A stretch of DNA of 62,681 bases, filler included, from Reclinomonas americana ATCC 50394 (lineage: Eukaryota), in NCBI GenBank assembly GCA_048213135.1. It is 5 parts of 4 records of this genome, joined end to end, with 100 filler letters (N's around TTAATTAATTAA, not from the genome) between each part and the next. Parts side by side here need not be neighbours in the genome. Positions count along the whole stretch, not along the records: positions 19,345 to 41,041 come from PS015389.1; 4 more parts are not named here. The stretch is one strand, 5' to 3'. The position numbers and the translations under genes are program-made. Positions 19,245 through 54,639 of the stretch are shown here, one piece after another (the stretch's first letter is position 1; the number at the start of each line of letters is the position of its first letter). The notes under the pieces are model-generated. The model was not told where the DNA came from. It did not search any database and saw only the letters and a list, made by a program, of their open reading frames with translations.

Positions 19245-19344
19245 NNNNNNNNNNNNNNNNNNNNNNNNNNNNNNNNNNNNNNNNNNNNTTAATTAATTAA
19301 NNNNNNNNNNNNNNNNNNNNNNNNNNNNNNNNNNNNNNNNNNNN
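19245..19344. other. Artificial contig linker N44-TTAATTAATTAA-N44 (also at 41042-41141, 45946-46045, 60023-60122)
   Basis: Identical 100-nt structure four times; the 12-mer contains stops in all six frames; adjacent genes are truncated at these points. Confidence 0.97.
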
Positions 19345-19497: not shown

Positions 19498-20964
19498 GCG
19501 CCACGAATCAATTCCCGGCCTCGAAACCCTCCGCCATCTCGTGTTGAAGAGCGCCCTGCTGACGCACACCGACGTGCTGGGCATCACGCCGGCCTACGCC
19601 GTCGCGTACTTGCTCTTCCGTCTGTTCAAGGACGCCGAGGTGTGGTGGCGTGTGCCGCAGGCAAAGAGAGTGGATATGCCGACTAACCTGCGCTTCATCG
19701 CCCTCACAGTACCCGTTCTACAAGGCCAGGTACGATCACGCGCTGCTGCAGGAGCTCGCCGACGAGCTGGACTCGTTTGAGAGGGACTTTTTCCAGTACG
19801 AGGCACCCGCTGCAGTGCAGTTTCGTACGCTCTCGTCCCTTTTTTTGGTGTCACATCACGTCGCTCACTTCTCCCACCTCGCGCAGCAATGAGAACAACC
19901 GCAAGGACAACTACGGCCGGTACTCCAGCATGTTGCGCAAAGTGGCCGATGAAGTCAAGCGAGCGCGAAACTCGTCACAGCGCGCCTCGCACCAAGTATT
20001 CGAGCAGGCCGCCGAGGTCATCAAGGAGGCGGCTGGTCGCCTCACCGACAGTCGCATCGACAGGTGTGCATTTCCTCCAACTCCCTTTCCCTTTCCCTAT
20101 CCTTGTCGTCGTCGCTCACACTGTCGCGTGCAGTCCTTCGCACGGCTTTGCGCCCGCCAGCGTCACCACGGCCATCTGCGCCTTCCTGATCATGCGCAGC
20201 TCCGAGTGGCCGATCATGAAGGTGCTGTGGAACTTGTTTGCGGTCGGTGGTGACACGGACACTGTCGGAGCTATTGCCGGCAGTCTATGTGCCGCCTCCA
20301 TGGCGTCGCGCGGACTTATGGGTGACGTCTTGTATCTGGTCGACTCGTATCTGATCGATTGCCCAGTTGCTCAGTCAAGACAAAGTATGGCGTCGCGCAA
20401 GGTGTTCTTCACTCGCCGTTTCTGTCTGTGCCTCACTCTGGCGTTCGTGTAGCGCTTGCCGAGCATTTTTACAACTTCGCCCATCAACGTGACTATGTCA
20501 TGGATGTGTTGGATGTGGAGCGGCGGGTGTCGCTGGCGCTCTGCTTGCAACCTGTGAACAAGAGAACAGCCGTGTACACACAACGCGAGCGTCGAGATGC
20601 TGCGGACAACCGACGTCGGCTGGAGGCTGGTGCGCTTGGCTGCTGTTTTCTGCCAAGGATTGCACCTGCTCAACTCTTGTGTGGCATGGCATGCAGAGTT
20701 CGGCTACGCTTTCCGGGACGCCATGCAACTGTATCACGACGTGCACCAGGTGGCCGCAGATCTGGCGAACGCGTACACGCAGGTCATGTTGCGACTGGCG
20801 GATCGAGCGCGCGTCGAACCTGCCGCCGTGTTTACGCTGCTGACAAGTACGTTTCCTTGCGAGTGCCCTCACATGTGCGCTAGTCGCAGCTCATCGTGGT
20901 GTGTGGCGCAGTGCAATCGCGCCAGGAAATGTTCAAGCGTGAGTGGAATCGCATGTTCAAGTGA
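19498..20964 (+). CDS. ADP-ribosylglycohydrolase (ARH/DraG family), 3' portion with a helical C-terminal extension
   Basis: SALLTHTD (family TH motif) and NLFAVGGDTDTVGAIAGSLCAA (GGDTDT metal-binding motif). Ends ...MFKREWNRMFK* after intron GTACGT..CAG. Confidence 0.88.
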
Positions 20965-26764: not shown

Positions 26765-28530
26765 AGGGCGCTACGAGTGCGGTGGTCGTGGTGGTTTTTT
26801 GCAGTCGACGATGAACGCGTTATTTTTATGTAGTGGTTGATGTTGTTGCGGTGGTGACGATGTCGCTGATCCACACAACCCAAAAGCGATGAATGACGAG
26901 ATGGCAAACTCCCCATGGCCAGAGTGGAAAACGGTGATTGCTCAATTGCAACAACGGAGGAAGTTGGCCAGCGATGCTTTTAGGGGGAAAATAAGCGGCT
27001 TCTCATCAACAGTTTGCGAAGATATCTTCCTGCGGCTGTGTAACGCCTTTGGGAGGTCCCTACGGCTCAGAAGCTACAACAACAACAANNNNNNNNNNNN
27101 NNNNNNNNNNNNNNNNNNNNNNNNNNNNNNNNNNNNNNNNNNNNNNNNNNNNNNNNNNNNNNNNNNNNNNNNNNNNNNNNNNNNNNNNNNNNNNNNNNNN
27201 NNNNNNNNNNNNNNNNNNNNNNNNNNNNNNNNNNNNNNNNNNNNNNNNNNNNNNNNNNNNNNNNNNNNNNNNNNNNNNNNNNNNNNNNNNNNNNNNNNNN
27301 NNNNNNNNNNNNNNNNNNNNNNNNNNNNNNNNNNNNNNNNNNNNNNNNNNNNNNNNNNNNNNNNNNNNNNNNNNNNNNNNNNNNNNNNNNNNNNNNNNNN
27401 NNNNNNNNNNNNNNNNNNNNNNNNNNNNNNNNNNNNNNNNNNNNNNNNNNNNNNNNNNNNNNNNNNNNNNNNNNNNNNNNNNNNNNNNNNNNNNNNNNNN
27501 NNNNNNNNNNNNNNNNNNNNNNNNNNNNNNNNNNNNNNNNNNNNNNNNNNNNNNNNNNNNNNNNNNNNNNNNNNNNNNNNNNNNNNNNNNNNNNNNNNNN
27601 NNNNNNNNNNNNNNNNNNNNNNNNNNNNNNNNNNNNNNNNNNNNNNNNNNNNNNNNNNNNNNNNNNNNNNNNNNNNNNNNNNNNNNNNNNNNNNNNNNNN
27701 NNNNNNNNNNNNNNNNNNNNNNNNNNNNNNNNNNNNNNNNNNNNNNNNNNNNNNNNNNNNNNNNNNNNNNNNNNNNNNNNNNNNNNNNNNNNNNNNNNNN
27801 NNNNNNNNNNNNNNNNNNNNNNNNNNNNNNNNNNNNNNNNNNNNNNNNNNNNNNNNNNNNNNNNNNNNNNNNNNNNNNNNNNNNNNNNNNNNNNNNNNNN
27901 NNNNNNNNNNNNNNNNNNNNNNNNNNNNNNNNNNNNNNNNNNNNNNNNNNNNNNNNNNNNNNNNNNNNNNNNNNNNNNNNNNNNNNNNNNNNNNNNNNNN
28001 NNNACCGGGACTACTCGACGTCGGGGTCGGCAGGCTCGGCCAAGATGCTCTCAATTTTGTTCATCAGCCTCTCAGTGATCCATCGGAAAACGGATTCGAC
28101 CATAAGACGCATCACTTTATTGGCAATATCTTTCCACAGAGTCATGTGTGGAACGTCGAGCTGAGTTCGCTTTGTCGTCAGTACACGGTCAGCCCCCCTA
28201 ATTATCAACACAGCAACAGGCGCAACTTTTTGGTTGTGGGTCAACACGCGTACAAGTTCACACTGTCAAAAGGCGAAGTACGACAAGCTCAAGAACCTGA
28301 TCACAACGGCCCGTGACAAAATCACAGTGATCGACGTCGATCTCGTATGAAGCAACGATGTACAGCAAAAGAAGGGTACAAGGGAAAGAGAGGCAAGAGA
28401 GGAGCAAAGATCGAAAGTCGGATCAGCAGCTGAAGACGGTGCGCAGCGTGGAAGGACATTTGTAGCCGTGACGGAGAAGGACACGCTTGACAGTAGATCG
28501 TACACGTAGCGCAGTCGTGAGTGAGCAATC

Positions 28531-31500
28531 ATGGGTAGAAGGCGGAGACAAGTGTCAGGTGTTGGGGCGGCAGCGGCAGAGGCAGCGGTGGTGAGTGAGG
28601 CTGCGGAGGAAGCGCTGCAAACAACGCGACGAACGAGGAGAACGCCTATGAAGGAGAAGGAGAAGAAGAATGAAAAGGAAGAACAGGCCGAGGAAGACAT
28701 GGATGAGGCGGAGGAGGACACACGACCGAAGAAGCGCCGGAAAGTAGACGCGGGCCACCACGCAGATGGTTTGCGTCGATCTCTCCCACCCTGTTCTCCT
28801 ATTATTCTTTGCCTGATGTTTGTTATGCATGTAAGTGCGTGTGTGCGTGTGCGTGTGTGCGTGTGTGTGTGTGTGTGTAGTTTGTGTGCTTGAGAGTGCG
28901 TGAGCGAGTGAATGAGTGTGTGTGTGCGTGTGAGAGAGAGAGAGAGAGAGTATGTGAAAGTGAGTGTTTGAGTGGGTGTGCATTTGATGTTGACTCGGTC
29001 TTTTTCAACCGTCGCAGCCACAACCACAACAGCCACCGCAGCCGCTGCAGCTGCTGCCAGTGCAGCTGCGGAAGTGACGGCAGCAGCACCTGCGGAAGCG
29101 CCAGCAGCAGAAGCATCTGGGCGATCAGGTGTGTCGCACCGCTCGACTCCACTGTGACGTCTCATTTCCCTCACTCTGTCTGTGGCGTGCAGGGAGAGGC
29201 GGTGCCAGTTTTACCCCGCGGCCAGCAGATACAATCCGCAGCTGGTTGGGCGACCACATGATCAGGGACGCCGACTATGTCGCCTGTTTCGTCTGCTTGT
29301 CAGTGTGCTGGGTGATTATATGCTCCCTTGCACTTATTGATGATGTGCAGTGCGCATGAGAAACCAAGCGACGCCAAGTGTGATTCTTGACAGCCTATCA
29401 GACGATGGCAATGCAACCCTGCGTGCGGTTGGGATCGTGCACGATAACGATCCCTTTCCTACGGAGGGTCAGTGGTGCATAGACGAGTGCGAAGTACTCA
29501 AGCCATACGCGCAGCTGTTTGGGGAAAAGTACGTAGCACTAACATGTGCTCTTCTGTCAGATGAAACACGCACACACAATACTCACGCTGTGTGTTATCC
29601 ATTGTTTCTCCTCTATTAACTTCATTCTTGCTCTCCTTCCCTCTTCTCCTTCGTCTTCTTCTTTTCTCCTTTCTATGTCTCGCAGGTTGTCTGGTTGTCC
29701 TCGGTCTCTGTGCAGATTGTGCATCGTTCGTGGATCCGTACCTTCTCACAATGTCTTCGCCTCTGCGTGTTCTGCTTTCTCTCTGGATTCATGGTCGTTT
29801 TCAACTTTCTCCGTCGTCGTCGTCATCGTCGTCGTCTCTCTCTCTCTCTCCGCCTCTTTACTCGCAGCATGTCTGCTCATTGTCAGTCTCTTAGCAGATT
29901 GTGCGTAGTCCATAGACTCGGTCACGGTCAGTTCCTCTGCGTATTCTGCGTTGTCTCTTTGCAGTTCATGGTTGTTTTCAACCTTTTGTGTTCGTTCGTT
30001 TCTGTGCCTCGTCACGCAGCGCACACGCATTCTCATGTTCAAAGTTGTTGAATATTCTGAGTGCGGCTTTCTCTTACTGCCAGCGCAGCGCTTACTCACT
30101 TGTTTCCTTCACCTGCTGCACGCTCGCTCTGCAAGTTGCTCATTCCCAATTCGTTTCCTCCCTCTCTCCGCTGCTCTCATCCTTGCGTTCTATCCCTTGC
30201 AGTGATGAAGAACGAGCCTCTGAGGAGCAGCGTCGGTATGTCAGTGTGTGAGTCTGTGCAGTATCCAAGAGCTTCTGACTCGCCTTACGCGTCTGCGCGC
30301 CCGATTCAGAATAGAGGCTTACAATTTTGGGAAGAAACGACTGCCGAAGGAACGCAGTACGGATAATTGGCCACTTGCTGGCATCCTTTCGCTGGCCAGC
30401 TTTCACCAGTGGTGCCCAGTGGGCCTGCTTCAAGTGGTCAAGCTAACCGAGAAACCGGTTTCCGCATCCCTGTTGCAGGTCAAGTCGTTTGGAGCGGTCG
30501 AGCCCCTGCTGAACAGTGCGGTGCGCTTCGTATTTCTACGTTCTCGGTGTGGTCAGTGACGATGTTGATATTGATTGCTTTATGCGCAGTGCGGCAGGCG
30601 AGTTGCAATGACGATCAATATGGATGCCGCTGCTTTCCCGTCCACGCGTACGTGCCCGCGTCCGGACCTCCAAATCGTTTTCAACAGGGGTTTTCCGGTG
30701 TTGATTGGCGAACTGAAGCCGAGTAAGCCGAATCGTGGCGAAAGTCAGCTTGACATGTTTGTTGTGCTGTTGCAAATGGCGTACAGCTTGTGGCGGCGGG
30801 TCTGTGAACTTGACGATGAGGAGTCGGAACAACATCGAGTTTACGGATGGCATCAGACTGGAACCGATGTCATCTTGATACAGATGAGAGCCACGGTGGA
30901 GACCGTCCGCGGCAAGGTATGCACGCATCGATCATTTATTTCGGAGATTGGGAGAAGTGACTTGATTGCTCCTCCGCAGCGGGTGTTTCTATTCCGATAC
31001 CAGAACATGTCTGACCTCGACGCTTATGGCACCCTGGCTCCATATCTGGAGTGGCCGATTGTGCGCACCGTGCTGCTGGCGTTGTTCGAGGGTACCAGAA
31101 TAAAGAGGGGCAAGTCGAAGTTGCGGCCGTGTCCCGGTCTGTCGACGCTGGTTTTCAACTTGTCGAGCCCCAAGGTATGCAGTGATACCGTTGCCTTGAT
31201 CTCGTTGCATCTTCAAGTTTTCTTTTCTCGCTCCCTTACTTCCATCTACGTTCGTGAATGATTACTGTGATGCGCTCGTTGGCCAGCCACGTACAAACTC
31301 GACGCAAACCGGCGGAGCCTCGGATTCTGCTCCACCTGTGCAGGTGGACGACGACGCTGGTGGTGGCGGTGGTGGTGGCGGTGGTGGTGGTTCGAGGATG
31401 CGCAAGACGGTCAACTGCGACTTTGCCACGGCGCGCCTTGTGAACGGCCTTCCGGTGGAGCTGGCTGTACTCCTGGTTTGTGCAAGATGCTGCTGCATCT

Positions 31501-32364
31501 CTCGTCTCACTTTGAGAGAGTGGAGTGGTATTGACTGACGCCTCCTCTCTTCTCGTTCCAGCTGCGACTGCCACACACGGTTCCGCTGTTGCGATACTGG
31601 ATCGATGCAGACCGCGGGTCATACGAGTTCACCATGCCTCGACTGCAACCGTGTGCGCCGCAGTCTATTGAGGAGGCACTCGAAGCCACACGTGAGGTGT
31701 GTGTGGCGCTGGCCGCCCTGCACGGAGCCGGATTCGTGCACTGCGATGTGAAGCCGTCGAATGTGATGAAGGACGAGCGTGGGCACGCAGTGCTGATTGA
31801 CTTTGATCACGCGCGTGTGGTGGAAGGCGGTGGCGGAGCGCGGCAGCAGCAGCAGCAGCAGCAGCAGCAGCTCATGAGTGCGCGTAGCACGGGGACAGTG
31901 GGGTATCAGGTGTGCGTGGCATGGCACGGAAAAGAGAGAAGCACAAATCTGCACACTTGTCTGCTGACGAGTGCTACCTGCGACAGGCGCCGGAGATTGT
32001 GGACAGCGGGCGCGGTGGCGAGCGAGTGGATACGTGGAGCCTCGGTGTTACTCTCGGGGCGTGGCTTGCGCGGATAGCTCCCAGTGGGTGCTCTGCGATG
32101 TTGAAGTGGCAGCATGGTATTGATGAGCATTTTTGCCGCGTTGGTACCGGCAGCAGCAGCGGCGAGAGTAGGTGGGAGGCGGCTGTGAGTGGTCTTGTGG
32201 GTGACATTCGAAGTTGCTTCGGCAAGAGGTGTGCGGGTGCGGTTGGATTGTTGGAGACGATGCTGGTGGTGGCGGCTCCGCAGCGGAAGACGTGTGCTCA
32301 GTTGCTTGAGGGCGGTGTGCTGTCGGCGTCTGCTCTCATTCGTGTGTCGCCGGAGAAGCGTTGA
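28531..32364 (+). CDS. NLS + PD-(D/E)xK nuclease-like domain + non-RD Ser/Thr kinase (Crinkler/RHS-type effector-like architecture), multi-exon
   Basis: RPKKRRKV at ~28723-28746; RPDLQIVFNRGFPVLIGELKP..GESQL at ~30658-30751; kinase ALAALHGAGFVHCDVKPSNV..VLIDFDHA..GTVGYQ|APE..DTWSLGVTL. N-terminal exon joins are less certain than the kinase. Confidence 0.75.
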
Positions 32365-39177: not shown

Positions 39178-39700
39178 CGCCGTACCCTGCGCAGCGAGGT
39201 GCACGGGAGACCAGGATGTGCAAAAGAACAGACCACGCTTGAACGTCTACATCTTGCGCAGCGAGGTCTTCCTTGCCGTCGATCCATCACCACGACTTAC
39301 AGGGCGGATCAGGAGGCAGCAAAAGCCGTGCTGAACAAGTAGAAGTCTCGGCTTCGTTCTGCCACCAAACGCCCATCGGGATGCTTCTGCGGTATCCTGC
39401 AGCGAGGTCATTCATATCGTCGATCCATCACCACGACTTGCACGGGACACCAGGAGGCAGCAAAAGCCGTGCTGAACAAGTAGAAGTCTCGGCTTCGTTC
39501 TGCCACCAAACGTCCACCGGGATACTTGTGCGGAGTCCTGCAGCGAGGTCTTCCATGTCGTCGATCCATCACCACGACTTGGCAGGGAGAGCAAGAAGTA
39601 GAAGAGGACGTCCGGTTTGCAACCCTTGGCTTCGTTCTGCCACCGCAACGCCCAGCGCCGTACCCTGTGCCGCGAGGTCACGGAGAGCAGGAAGCCGTGA
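39178..39700. repeat. Modular tandem repeat with 141-bp period
   Basis: GATCCATCACCACGACTT at 39281, 39422, 39563; GGCTTCGTTCTGCCACC at ~39350, 39491, 39628; CGCCGTACCCTG at ~39178 and ~39656. Confidence 0.85.
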
Positions 39701-41021: not shown

Positions 41022-41388
41022 AGTACTCTGACATACACACANNNNNNNNNNNNNNNNNNNNNNNNNNNNNNNNNNNNNNNNNNNNTTAATTAATTAANNN
41101 NNNNNNNNNNNNNNNNNNNNNNNNNNNNNNNNNNNNNNNNNCTCTCTCTTGCACATACTCATGCACCCAACAAACGAGTCTCGTTTCCATGTCAGTCATT
41201 CACCAGCAGCTTCTATTCCTATCTGCATTCTCCTTCCCTCCCGTTGTCTCCCTCTTTTCTTTCTTTCTTTCTTTCTCTCTCTCTCCTGCACACACACACA
41301 CACACACACAGCAGTCTCTATTCCGATCTGCATTCTCCTTCCCTCCCTCTTGTTCTCATTCTCCCTCCCTCTCTCCCTCGCACGCAAC

Positions 41389-44677: not shown

Positions 44678-46178
44678 NNNNNNNNNNNNNNNNNNNNNNN
44701 NNNNNNNNNNNNNNNNNNNNNNNNNNNNNNNNNNNNNNNNNNNNNNNNNNNNNNNNNNNNNNNNNNNNNNNNNNNNNNNNNNNNNNNNNNNNNNNNNNNN
44801 NNNNNNNNNNNNNNNNNNNNNNNNNNNNNNNNNNNNNNNNNNNNNNNNNNNNNNNNNNNNNNNNNNNNNNNNNNNNNNNNNNNNNNNNNNNNNNNNNNNN
44901 NNNNNNNNNNNNNNNNNNNNNNNNNNNNNNNNNNNNNNNNNNNNNNNNNNNNNNNNNNNNNNNNNNNNNNNNNNNNNNNNNNNNNNNNNNNNNNNNNNNN
45001 NNNNNNNNNNNNNNNNNNNNNNNNNNNNNNNNNNNNNNNNNNNNNNNNNNNNNNNNNNNNNNNNNNNNNNNNNNNNNNNNNNNNNNNNNNNNNNNNNNNN
45101 NNNNNNNNNNNNNNNNNNNNNNNNNNNNNNNNNNNNNNNNNNNNNNNNNNNNNNNNNNNNNNNNNNNNNNNNNNNNNNNNNNNNNNNNNNNNNNNNNNNN
45201 NNNNNNNNNNNNNNNNNNNNNNNNNNNNNNNNNNNNNNNNNNNNNNNNNNNNNNNNNNNNNNNNNNNNNNNNNNNNNNNNNNNNNNNNNNNNNNNNNNNN
45301 NNNNNNNNNNNNNNNNNNNNNNNNNNNNNNNNNNNNNNNNNNNNNNNNNNNNNNNGCAAGGGAAAGGGGAGGGGGAGGTAGAAGGGAAAGGGAAGTGAAG
45401 GAGAAAGGGAAAGGGAAAGTGAGAGAGGACATAGGGGGAGGAGAAGTAGAAGGGAAAGGAGAGGAAGAAGAGGAAAGGGAAAGTGAGAGAGGAAATAGGG
45501 GGGAAAGAGGAGGGAGGGAGGTTAAGGGAAAGGAGAGAAGACAGGGAGAGAGAGAGAGAGAGTTTTGAGCGGGACAGCGTGTGTGTGTGTGTGTGTGCTG
45601 TACAGTTGGAGCAGTATGTTGCACGAGTTAAGAACTCTGAGTGACGGGACGACATTCTGGAGTGGTTTATTCTGTGCAGGAGTGATTGCGAGTTTCAGAG
45701 ACAGAAAGAGAAAGAGAGAGAGAGAGAGCTACTTGGCTTCCACCGAATTAAGGAAGGCGAAAGAGTGTTTGTGTGTTGTTGGGATAGAGTTAGATTTTAA
45801 GAAGGACAGAGGTGTGTGTGTGTGTGTGTGCGCTGCACAGTAGGAACAGTACATACTTGTTCGTGTCAAGAACCCTGATAGTTATGACGGTACAGCATAC
45901 TAGAGTGGTTTATTCTGTGCAGGAGTGACAGTGAATTTCAGAGGCNNNNNNNNNNNNNNNNNNNNNNNNNNNNNNNNNNNNNNNNNNNNTTAATTAATTA
46001 ANNNNNNNNNNNNNNNNNNNNNNNNNNNNNNNNNNNNNNNNNNNNTGTGTGTGTGTGTGTGTGTTATCAGTCGTTTGCATTGTTCCTTTTTGTCGTCCAC
46101 TGTGTCGCGCTCTCTCTCTCTCTCTCTCGCTTGTTCTCTTACTCCCGTTCTCTTGTTCTCTTTTTGTCGTTGTTGCAG

Positions 46179-51677: not shown

Positions 51678-54639
51678 TTACGAGTGTCGCTCGAGTATGG
51701 CGGCGACTGCATCGAGTGCCGACTTGCTGCCGTCGGACTTGCCACCGACTACCCGTCGATTCCCGTATTCCACTAATGCGCGGAAGCACTCGCCTGTGGC
51801 ACACGTGTGAGGCAGGTGGGCGGAAAACAGGCAGGGCGGACGCGGATTTTGCCCGCACCAACTGAAACTGTTCGACTGGCACACAGATCGCTGAACTTTG
51901 CCAGCTTCTCCGACACTGCCGCATCGCCAAAAGCGTGGTACTTGAGCTGTATGGCGTGTGTCAAGCGACCGATACACAGTAGCAACCATGGGGAAACCCG
52001 AGGCACACGAAACTCGACGACCCCACAGCGATGCGGCAAGAAGCTGGATAATGGCCTTGGTCTCCTTGTCGCCGCCAAACATGCCGCAACCCCAGTGACC
52101 TGGCACTGGTGTGTCAGCACACACGTGTTCCCACCAATTTCTCTTTCGAGTCATCAACAGACCTGTGGCGATCGGCGTCATCCGGTCTTCCTCATCCAGC
52201 ACAGCATCGGGAGCAAAGGCACATGCCGCCTGCCGCACGCAAGTGAGCGCTGGAAACACGGAGACACATTCATGCAGCGCAAGGCACCTTGTTCATCTCA
52301 CGAATCATCCCGGCTTCGCTAAACTGAACACGCTCGCCAGAATAGTAAATGGACGCGTCGAACGCGGCAATCCACGACTTCAGTCGGTTTGCTGAATCTC
52401 TGCGGAGAGTGTCAGAAAGAGCACGATGACTTGTTCCACGACAACAGAGACCTTGGTAACGCCTGCACATAATTCCCACCGTACTGCAACGACCCGCCGT
52501 AGCCACGATGCTGCGAGTAACGCTCCGTTCCGTACTGTATGTAACATACGTGCGCATAATCAGAGCGGGGTATGCGAGTTAGTGAGTGACGCAGAGTCGA
52601 CGCTACCATCAACAGCGTCTCGTTGTCCATCAGTGGTGCGGTGATGAGCGACGCCACACACAGTTCCGGGTTGAGCATGAACCGAATCTCTTCTTGCACA
52701 TTACCCTGCGGCGGAAAATACTCGTGGTGAGAGAGAGAGACTCTCATCGCACTCTACATCCCGCCGGTTAGGGAATGAAAGATCGCCCAAGCAGCACATG
52801 CAAGAAGCTGAATGCTCTCTTGTGCATCCCGTGACACCACGATACCATTTCATCAATCCACTCTCGCCCTCACGCGTCTCGTGGCTTCTCAATCTCTTCA
52901 TCATCGATCTCTCCAACGCCCACACCCAAGGCAAGCGAATGCAAGCCGCTGAATGCTCTCTACGTCCCGATGCCCCACAATCTCAGCATCATCAGTACTC
53001 TCTCGACACACCCGAGGCGACAAGCAGAGATCACCCAACCACCCGTGCAAGACACTGAATGCTGCCTCCCTCTCCCTTTTCCCCTCCCCTTCCCCTCTTT
53101 CCCCCTCCCCTTCCCTTCTATCCCCAACGCAACAGCCTCAATCGCTCCACCCCCGACATAGCGATTCGCAAAATCGGCCTGTGCACAGACCACCACCACA
53201 TTGAGCTTCGCAGCAGCAGCGGTCTTCCCTTCCCCCCATGCCACGCAACATGTAACGCGTCATCATTCTCATCCTCGATACCCCTGTGCGTGCTCTCGAC
53301 GGCGAGCAGCGGCAGCACAGGCTTGTCGACGGTCGACCATTCAACTGGCTGCTGCAAAACATGTCTGTGGAAGGTAATACACGCCGTGCCGACTGCACAA
53401 CCAACAACGATTCAGTGGTCCGTCTCCCACACCATCTCCCACGCCACGTGCCTTGCTGTGACACACGCCGCCAGTAGTTGATCATGAGGCGAAACTTGGC
53501 CAGCTGACTTCGCTCCAAATCAACTGCTTGCACCAATGAGTAGCAGGCAGAGGGAGGGAGAGGCGGGAAGGAGAGATGCCAGTCGCAACATTGGAAAAAT
53601 GTACAAAAATTGCTCGGTGGCATGCGTTTCCGTATGGGAGTGAGACAGAGAAACTGCTGCGCGAGTATACATGCCGCCTGCTCTTGCGACAGCGTGACGC
53701 CGGCATCTGTGGCACCACAAACGAGGGTCGGAACGAGATGGTAAAAGAAAGCATCGCAGTAGGCGAACCGTGTTGCTGCTGCAACAGGGGCAGTGGATGC
53801 GGAAGCAGAGTGGCCGCGCGAAGCGCCATTCGCTGCACGGTGGGCAGGATGACCTCGAAGAACTCGCGACTCTCCTGTTCGCATGGATGAGAAGGCACTG
53901 CAAGACCGGTGATGATGATCGATCTACACAAGCCACACCTCAGCACTAAAGTTGGTCTCGATGCACTCTAGTATGTGCTGCCACACGTAGTCGAGTCCAA
54001 TCGCCGAGAAGAATGTCTGCAGTGCGTGTGTGTGTGAGATGATCTGCTGGCCGCCACACGAGTGACAACAGAAAAATAGAATCATGTACAAGTCCGCGGA
54101 ACTTGCGCGCGCGACAACGACACGAGCATGCACACAAGCATCTACACACGCACACACATGTACGTGAGCACACCTGCAGTCCCTCAAAGTCCTCAATCTG
54201 CTTGGTGAGCAGCGGTTGCACCTTGGCCCAGCCTGAGCATGCACAAAGAGAGTGAGTGAGATGAGTGTGCACGTGCAGGAGACACACTCAATGAGCGACA
54301 GTGCGCGTGTGTGTGTATGCAAGGAGACAGTGAGACAGAGATCATGAGATGGTGTCCGCATATAATCCCGCAAGCGCAACGACCCGGCACATGGTGCGCC
54401 AACAGCACCAGCGCAGCACCTCGTTCCTGTGCACGCGCACTGGCCGCACTTTCATCGCGCAAATCCACATGCCAACTGGACACAACTGCCCAGCTCGGCA
54501 CACTCCGCATGGGCGCGTCGTCGCCACCGTCATCGTCCATGTCGCCTTCGTCTGCATCGATGCCTGTGCCATCGTCGTCGGCGGAGGGCATGTCGAAGAG
54601 AATGGGAGGAGCAGGGTGGTGCGCGTCGCCCTCGCTCAT
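51678..54639 (-). CDS. PARG: Poly(ADP-ribose) glycohydrolase (canonical macrodomain PARG)
   Basis: FFEVILP, LSQEQAACILAQQF, ADFANRYVGGG, GNVQEEIRFMLNPELCVA, GTERYSQHRGYG, IREMNK|A, IATG|HWGCGMFGGD..KAIIQLLAAS. Confidence 0.95.

What the first reader, a model, noticed from the sequence alone, without database searches (positions are those of the whole stretch)
28531..32364. Nuclear-targeted PD-(D/E)xK nuclease + kinase fusion resembling Crinkler/RHS effectors
Seen: an SV40-like NLS (PKKRRKV), then PD-x~12-ELK-x~8-Q (RPDLQIVFNRGFPVLIGELKPSKPNRGESQL), then a kinase with HCD (non-RD), DFD instead of DFG and no clear Gly-loop. Known: restriction-endonuclease-fold + kinase is one of the recurring Crinkler-RHS-type architectures, which are linked to transposon origins and biological conflict. 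Inference: a toxin, defence or selfish-element gene with an apparently intact nuclease triad. I see no LFLAK-type ubiquitin-like header, so the N-terminus may be a new header type.
Basis: partly seen in the sequence, partly recalled or inferred. Interest (0 to 1): 0.75.

Follow-up and report, generated by a model that had tools for sequence, protein, structure and literature searches.

The report
Orphan kinase with nuclease-like domain
An apparently intact, intron-rich gene of an unidentified single-celled eukaryote encodes a protein kinase preceded by a domain that probably cuts DNA, a pairing already known from fungal spore killers and Crinkler effectors, though the DNA-cutting part could not be proven here.

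Summary
The gene is real. Eleven GT-AG exons (28531-32364) give a stop-free 737-residue protein: a low-complexity N-terminus with PKKRRKV, a middle alpha/beta domain with PD-x14-ELK-x9-Q, and a Ser/Thr-type kinase (HCDVKPSN, DFD, APE; Pfam Pkinase 6e-11). Nuclease-like exon and kinase almost certainly share one reading frame, because exon 8 carries the end of one and the start of the other; exons 3-6 are uncertain and no RNA was available. The nuclease call is probable (about 0.7) but unproven: motif spacing, predicted strand-strand-helix-strand-strand order and language-model neighbours (PDDEXK_12, HSDR_N; 0.83-0.86, lead level) agree, but no profile, homologue or fold search confirmed it. 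The protein has no detectable relatives outside the kinase. It fails the defining tests for classical Crinkler (no LxLFLAK/HVLV header), Spok (no Cys cluster) and FunK1. Best reading: a divergent, cell-autonomous nuclear nuclease-kinase of the widespread REase+kinase design, with the kinase restraining the nuclease. The scan noted this architecture before on other DNA (e1-7449114, same genome; e1-2593166). New member of a known kind; modest interest.

The parts
28531..32364 (+). Whole gene, 11 predicted exons, 737 aa, no internal stop
   Evidence: introns GT-AG, T-richer than exons in 9 of 10, branch-like motif in 7 of 10 (no chance control)
28531..28768 (+). Exon 1: charged low-complexity N-terminus
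28726..28746 (+). PKKRRKV, SV40-like NLS (residues 66-72); likeness to the SV40 signal is recalled
   Evidence: sequence
29018..29128 (+). Exon 2: Ala/Thr-rich linker
29193..29528 (+). Exons 3-4 (29193-29298, 29394-29528): small ordered-looking region with CxxC and CxxxC, possible metal site; boundaries uncertain
   Evidence: no Pfam or NCBIfam hit on the exon 4 frame
30203..30520 (+). Exons 5-6 (30203-30235, 30310-30520): uncertain; end of exon 6 may supply the first helix of the nuclease-like core
   Evidence: 12,095 alternative stop-free paths link exon 4 to exon 7 under loose rules
30590..30916 (+). Exon 7: putative PD-(D/E)xK core (D304 at 30665, E319 at 30710, K321 at 30716, Q331 at 30746)
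   Evidence: motif in sequence; strand-strand-helix-strand-strand order; Atlas neighbours; codon-position GC 0.58/0.43/0.63
30980..31174 (+). Exon 8: last strand and helices of the middle domain, then degenerate Gly loop of the kinase (about 31121-31156)
   Evidence: joined to exon 7 by a 63-nt in-frame, stop-free intron
31344..31475 (+). Exon 9: poly-Gly insert, candidate beta3 Lys (K473, assigned by eye) and alphaC Glu (E491)
   Evidence: Glu aligns in 5 of 6 kinases, Lys sits 4 columns off
31562..31909 (+). Exon 10: kinase hinge, HCDVKPSN (D558 at 31745), DFD (31799-31807), poly-Gln insert in the activation segment
   Evidence: Pfam PF00069 E 6e-11
31987..32364 (+). Exon 11: APE, DTWSLG, rest of the C-lobe, stop
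   Evidence: Pfam PF00069 E 5.7e-05

Best explanation
One resident nuclear gene encodes a non-secreted protein of the REase+kinase design. Shown: the reading frame, the NLS-like motif and the kinase. Inferred: exon 7 folds as a PD-(D/E)xK core in which D304 and E319 bind Mg2+ and K321 positions the attacking water, with Q331 on the following helix. Inferred by analogy with Spok and CRN8: the protein enters its own nucleus, the nuclease can damage DNA, and the attached kinase sets its activity, most simply by autophosphorylation that keeps it off until a trigger such as an invading virus, mobile DNA or loss of the gene. It is a cell-autonomous conflict or defence protein of transposon/toxin ancestry that has been in this genome long enough to gain ten host-style introns and homopolymer inserts.
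For: Stop-free model, exons 7-11 all phase 0, exon 8 spans both domains. Motif order D...ExK...Q with D opening one strand, E closing the next and Q starting the helix (alignment-guided), and the same helix and following strands without any alignment. Atlas: top three named clusters are PDDEXK_12, rank 9 is HSDR_N, 10 of the 10 best family-bearing hits share one clan. QxxxF at 331-335 resembles the QxxxY motif described for Spok and HsdR (PMC6660238 passages). REase+kinase is about one sixth of CR C-termini (PMC5289972) and widely distributed (PMC12693581). In Spok the nuclease kills and the kinase protects. No hydrophobic N-terminal stretch (max 19-residue hydropathy 0.96 in the first 60 aa).
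Against: No relative of exons 7-8 among 1.84 billion representatives at E <= 0.001, nor by word search or locus scans. No Pfam, PADLOC or PHROG family. Atlas scores are all under 0.9 with 115-139 shared features, below the 170 typical of true family members, and a third of shuffled proteins also get a single-clan list. FunK1 head profile gives no significant match. The kinase N-lobe is divergent and its beta3 Lys uncertain. The regulatory link and the biological role are analogy only.
Confidence: 0.45

Rival explanations
1. An orphan signalling kinase whose middle domain is an unrelated alpha/beta module; the PD...ELK...Q match is coincidence.
For: No sequence, profile or fold confirmation; Atlas scores below 0.9; this genome has many orphan-domain kinases according to unchecked notes.
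Against: Four motif residues fall on the expected strands and helix; the Atlas clan is the one predicted beforehand; the domain sits directly before a kinase, as in the published class.
Confidence: 0.27
2. A domesticated REase+kinase descendant: the fold is right but it now works as a DNA- or chromatin-binding kinase or pseudokinase, with little or no cutting.
For: Ten introns, poly-Ala/Gly/Gln inserts, no second copy in the window and no look-alike among the scan's noted windows; degenerate Gly loop and DFD.
Against: The full D/E/K triad is retained in an otherwise unrecognisably diverged sequence.
Confidence: 0.18
3. A Crinkler-like effector delivered into prey, host or competitor nuclei.
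For: CRN8 has the same two-domain C-terminus and needs an NLS (PMC3426532; PMC5289972); CR headers are diverse and often lack signal peptides.
Against: No LxLFLAK, HVLV or signal-like stretch; the N-terminus is low-complexity; CRN8 is an RD kinase, this one is HCD; no sign of a local expansion.
Confidence: 0.1

Closest known systems
CR (Crinkler-RHS-type) REase+kinase C-terminal module, e.g. Phytophthora infestans CRN8 (PMC5289972, PMC3426532; Zhang et al. 2016 seen only through citing papers)
   Same: Order nuclease-like domain then Ser/Thr kinase; an NLS; similar length.
   Different: No Ubl/LxLFLAK or HVLV header; HCD rather than RD kinase; NLS at the N-terminus; no sequence similarity could be tested or shown.
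Spok spore killers of Podospora (PMC6660238, PMC9972908)
   Same: Intracellular nuclear protein of about 700+ aa: N-terminal region, PD-(D/E)xK domain with a Q-motif, C-terminal kinase; HsdR-like nuclease is also among the Atlas neighbours here.
   Different: No C-x3-C-x13-C-x5-H-x7-H cluster before the kinase; the kinase here has ePK-type APE and DxWSxG motifs whereas Spok's is described as ELK-like; no evidence of drive.
FunK1 fungal kinases (Pfam PF17667)
   Same: A D...GELK head followed by a kinase with DxD in place of DFG (DLD in the fetched loci); with hand-chosen ends the heads align in register.
   Different: 18.4 bits against a cut-off of 24.1, kinase part only; head similarity not above shuffles; subdomains VIII-IX differ. 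That the FunK1 head is a REase is recalled, not shown here (one search found no solved relative).
PDDEXK_12 (PF20516) and HSDR_N (PF04313)
   Same: Nearest named clusters by language-model features (0.83-0.86).
   Different: No hmmscan match.

Membership tests
PD-(D/E)xK nuclease superfamily | Catalytic D ... (D/E)xK triad | tested here: met
   D304, E319, K321 in the sequence; conservation untestable without homologues
PD-(D/E)xK nuclease superfamily | Triad on a two-strand hairpin followed by helix and further strands | tested here: inconclusive
   Order as expected in low-confidence models: pLDDT 54.6 with a hand-trimmed FunK1 alignment, 38.1 alone, where the ExK strand was not assigned
PD-(D/E)xK nuclease superfamily | 3D match to a solved member | tested here: inconclusive
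   Both models have pTM 0.35; no informative match
PD-(D/E)xK nuclease superfamily | Profile similarity to a member family | tested here: inconclusive
   No Pfam hit; Atlas lead 0.83-0.86
PD-(D/E)xK nuclease superfamily | Metal-dependent nuclease activity | not testable with these tools
   needs bench assay
Eukaryotic-type Ser/Thr protein kinase | HxDxKxxN, DFx, APE, DxWSxG | tested here: met
Eukaryotic-type Ser/Thr protein kinase | Gly loop, beta3 Lys, alphaC Glu | tested here: inconclusive
   One of three Gly kept, Glu aligned, Lys by eye only; profile matched residues 525-643 only
Classical CRN effector | LxLFLAK Ubl header ending in HVLVxxP | tested here: not met
   No match in the 737-aa model; exons 3-6 uncertain
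CR REase+kinase class (Zhang et al. 2016) | REase followed by kinase in one chain | tested here: inconclusive
   One chain supported; REase probable only
CR REase+kinase class (Zhang et al. 2016) | Match to the published CR-REase, CR-kinase or header profiles | not testable with these tools
   Paper and supplements not held
CR REase+kinase class (Zhang et al. 2016) | Lineage-specific expansion or link to mobile DNA | not testable with these tools
   No genome held; gene fills a 4.8-kb contig between gaps; no copy in the window
Spok | C-x3-C-x13-C-x5-H-x7-H cluster before the kinase | tested here: not met
   Cys positions in the model give no such cluster between the two domains; motif from PMC6660238
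Spok | Killing by nuclease, resistance by kinase | not testable with these tools
   needs genetics
FunK1 (PF17667) | Pfam score above 24.1 bits over head and kinase | tested here: not met
   18.4 bits on the catalytic segment only, exons scanned separately; own profile from 20 full-length loci matched only residues 534-580 of the model

The most novel reading that the evidence does not exclude
A lineage of REase+kinase proteins with no detectable relatives in 15 billion proteins that works as a single-gene poison-antidote element in a protist nucleus, a Spok counterpart outside fungi, with a small Cys-based header and an ePK-type non-RD, DFD kinase as the antidote switch.
Probability: 0.12. 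Interest if true: 0.65.

Novelty: new member of a known kind. Interest (0 to 1): 0.3.

Why it matters
How one chain can be both poison and antidote is an open question for Spok (PMC6660238, PMC9972908). A very divergent, non-secreted version with an ordinary ePK-type kinase would show whether kinase control of the nuclease is general and what free-living protists use these proteins for. As it stands it adds one more probable case of a catalogued architecture.

Full report
Setting. The window is eukaryotic, GC-rich and intron-rich, with microsatellites and many assembly gaps. Neighbouring frames match SCAI, a PACS-type C2 domain, PARG, an ADP-ribosylhydrolase, a homeobox and EF-hands (93 ORFs scanned). 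The organism was not identified. The gene fills a 4.8-kb contig (28004-32837) between two N gaps, so its true flanks cannot be examined. No genome is held and no RNA holder was listed.

Gene model. Eleven exons with GT-AG introns give a 737-residue protein without stops, from the ATG at 28531 to the stop at 32364. Nine of ten introns are T-richer than any exon and seven of ten carry a branch-like motif (no chance control). Exons 7 and 8 show the same codon-position GC pattern as kinase exon 10. The back half is well constrained: exons 7-11 all join in phase 0, intron 7 is in frame and stop-free, exon 8 holds both the tail of the middle domain and the first kinase strands, and intron 10 splits GYQ|APE. 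The front half is not constrained: 12,095 stop-free splice paths link exon 4 to exon 7 under loose rules, so residues about 150-278 are a guess.

Kinase. Pfam Pkinase matches exon 10 at 6e-11 and exon 11 at 5.7e-05. The catalytic loop HCDVKPSN, DFD, APE and DTWSLG are present. Aligned with six generic kinases, a degenerate Gly loop appears at the end of exon 8 and the alphaC Glu aligns in 5 of 6; the beta3 Lys can only be placed by eye, behind a poly-Gly insert, and the profile itself matched only residues 525-643. Closest sequences are weak and generic. It is probably an active non-RD Ser/Thr kinase, but a weakened or dead one is possible.

Middle domain, evidence for a nuclease. The sequence shows P303-D304, E319-L-K321 and Q331-x3-F335. 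AlphaFold2 without an alignment (pLDDT 38) gave a strand after PD, a long helix from the Q motif, three more strands and two helices. With 23 FunK1 heads aligned in a register that I obtained by choosing the ends, it gave a hairpin with D at the start of one strand and E at the end of the next, then the helix and two strands (pLDDT 54.6, pTM 0.35). That second model is partly circular. In the ESM Atlas, recognition values were 2790 and 3325; unfiltered top hits were unnamed (0.88) with PDDEXK_12 at rank 8 of 30; among named clusters the top three were PDDEXK_12 (0.85-0.86), HSDR_N came ninth, and 10 of 10 best family-bearing hits shared one clan. The tool calls such scores leads only.

Middle domain, evidence against or missing. 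No Pfam, PADLOC or PHROG family, and one unrelated NCBIfam row at E 0.19. No homologue among 1.84 billion representatives or in the other searches. FunK1, which I chose from memory as a similar design, shows no similarity above shuffles outside the kinase. Fold searches with the two poor models are uninformative. The chance rate of the motif was not measured. I put the PD-(D/E)xK fold at about 0.7.

N-terminus. Residues 1-125 are Ala/Glu/Arg/Thr-rich with PKKRRKV at 66-72; no signal-like hydrophobic stretch, no LxLFLAK-like or HVLV motif. Exons 3-4 carry CxxC and CxxxC, possibly a metal site, without any family match. This is too little to name a new header.

How it most likely works. REase followed by kinase makes up about one sixth of CR C-termini, with the REase thought to be toxic and the kinase regulatory (PMC5289972; passages and section 11 read), and the pairing is described as widespread and transposon-derived (PMC12693581; passages). 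In Spok the nuclease Lys is needed for killing and the kinase Asp for resistance (PMC6660238; passages), and killing works through DNA damage (PMC9972908; abstract and Discussion). CRN8 needs its NLS, and its catalytic Asp is dispensable for cell death (PMC3426532; passages). CRN homologues occur in free-living eukaryotes (PMC12957317; passages). With an NLS and no export features, the most likely reading is a nuclear, cell-autonomous nuclease switched by its own kinase (0.45). Rivals: orphan kinase with an unrelated domain (0.27), domesticated non-cutting form (0.18), delivered effector (0.10). Only the frame, motifs and kinase are shown; the fold, activity, regulation and role are inferred.

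Membership and novelty. It works like the REase+kinase class if the fold holds, but is not a classical CRN, Spok or FunK1 by the tests above. Membership in the CR class could not be tested, since Zhang et al. 2016 and its supplements are not held; those supplements may already list this family. I make no claim that the architecture is unpublished; it is published. Unchecked notes of this scan report a motif-only nuclease+kinase pair on another piece of this genome (e1-7449114) and the same architecture in a rotifer (e1-2593166); sequence look-ups found no look-alike of exons 7-8 or exon 10, so any kinship is distant. Verdict: new member of a known kind, interest 0.3.

Noticed in passing
window 28014-28265, minus strand: A protein-like 84-aa frame about 270 bp upstream of the ATG, running into the gap; possibly a head-to-head gene. 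No Pfam match.
   Followed up: partly
window 29679-29808 and 29861-29985: A 70%-identical direct duplication of about 130 nt inside the 674-nt intron 4, each copy starting near a strong acceptor-like site; hidden or duplicated exons are possible.
   Followed up: no
window about 44540-39820, minus strand: By eye a WD40-like repeat, coiled coil, IRAK/Pelle-like RD kinase and proline-rich tail; only a weak Pkinase hit was tested.
   Followed up: partly
window 41086-41097 and 45990-46001: A 12-nt spacer with stops in all frames between paired 44-N gaps; gap coordinates suggest the same at 19289 and 60067. Probably an assembly linker, so adjacency across gaps is not reliable.
   Followed up: partly
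window 31358-31391 and 31843-31871: In-frame poly-Gly and poly-Gln inserts inside the kinase N-lobe and activation segment.
   Followed up: partly
window 39258-39581: 141-nt tandem repeat, 2.3 copies, 89% matches.
   Followed up: no
L004-L076: Fungal FunK1 kinases (PF17667 in 4 of 4 tested) begin with a D...GELK head that looks like a degenerate PD-(D/E)xK core; no solved relative found by sequence.
   Followed up: partly
window 19781-20449 and 51681-53967: An ADP-ribosylhydrolase-like frame and a PARG gene lie in the same window.
   Followed up: no
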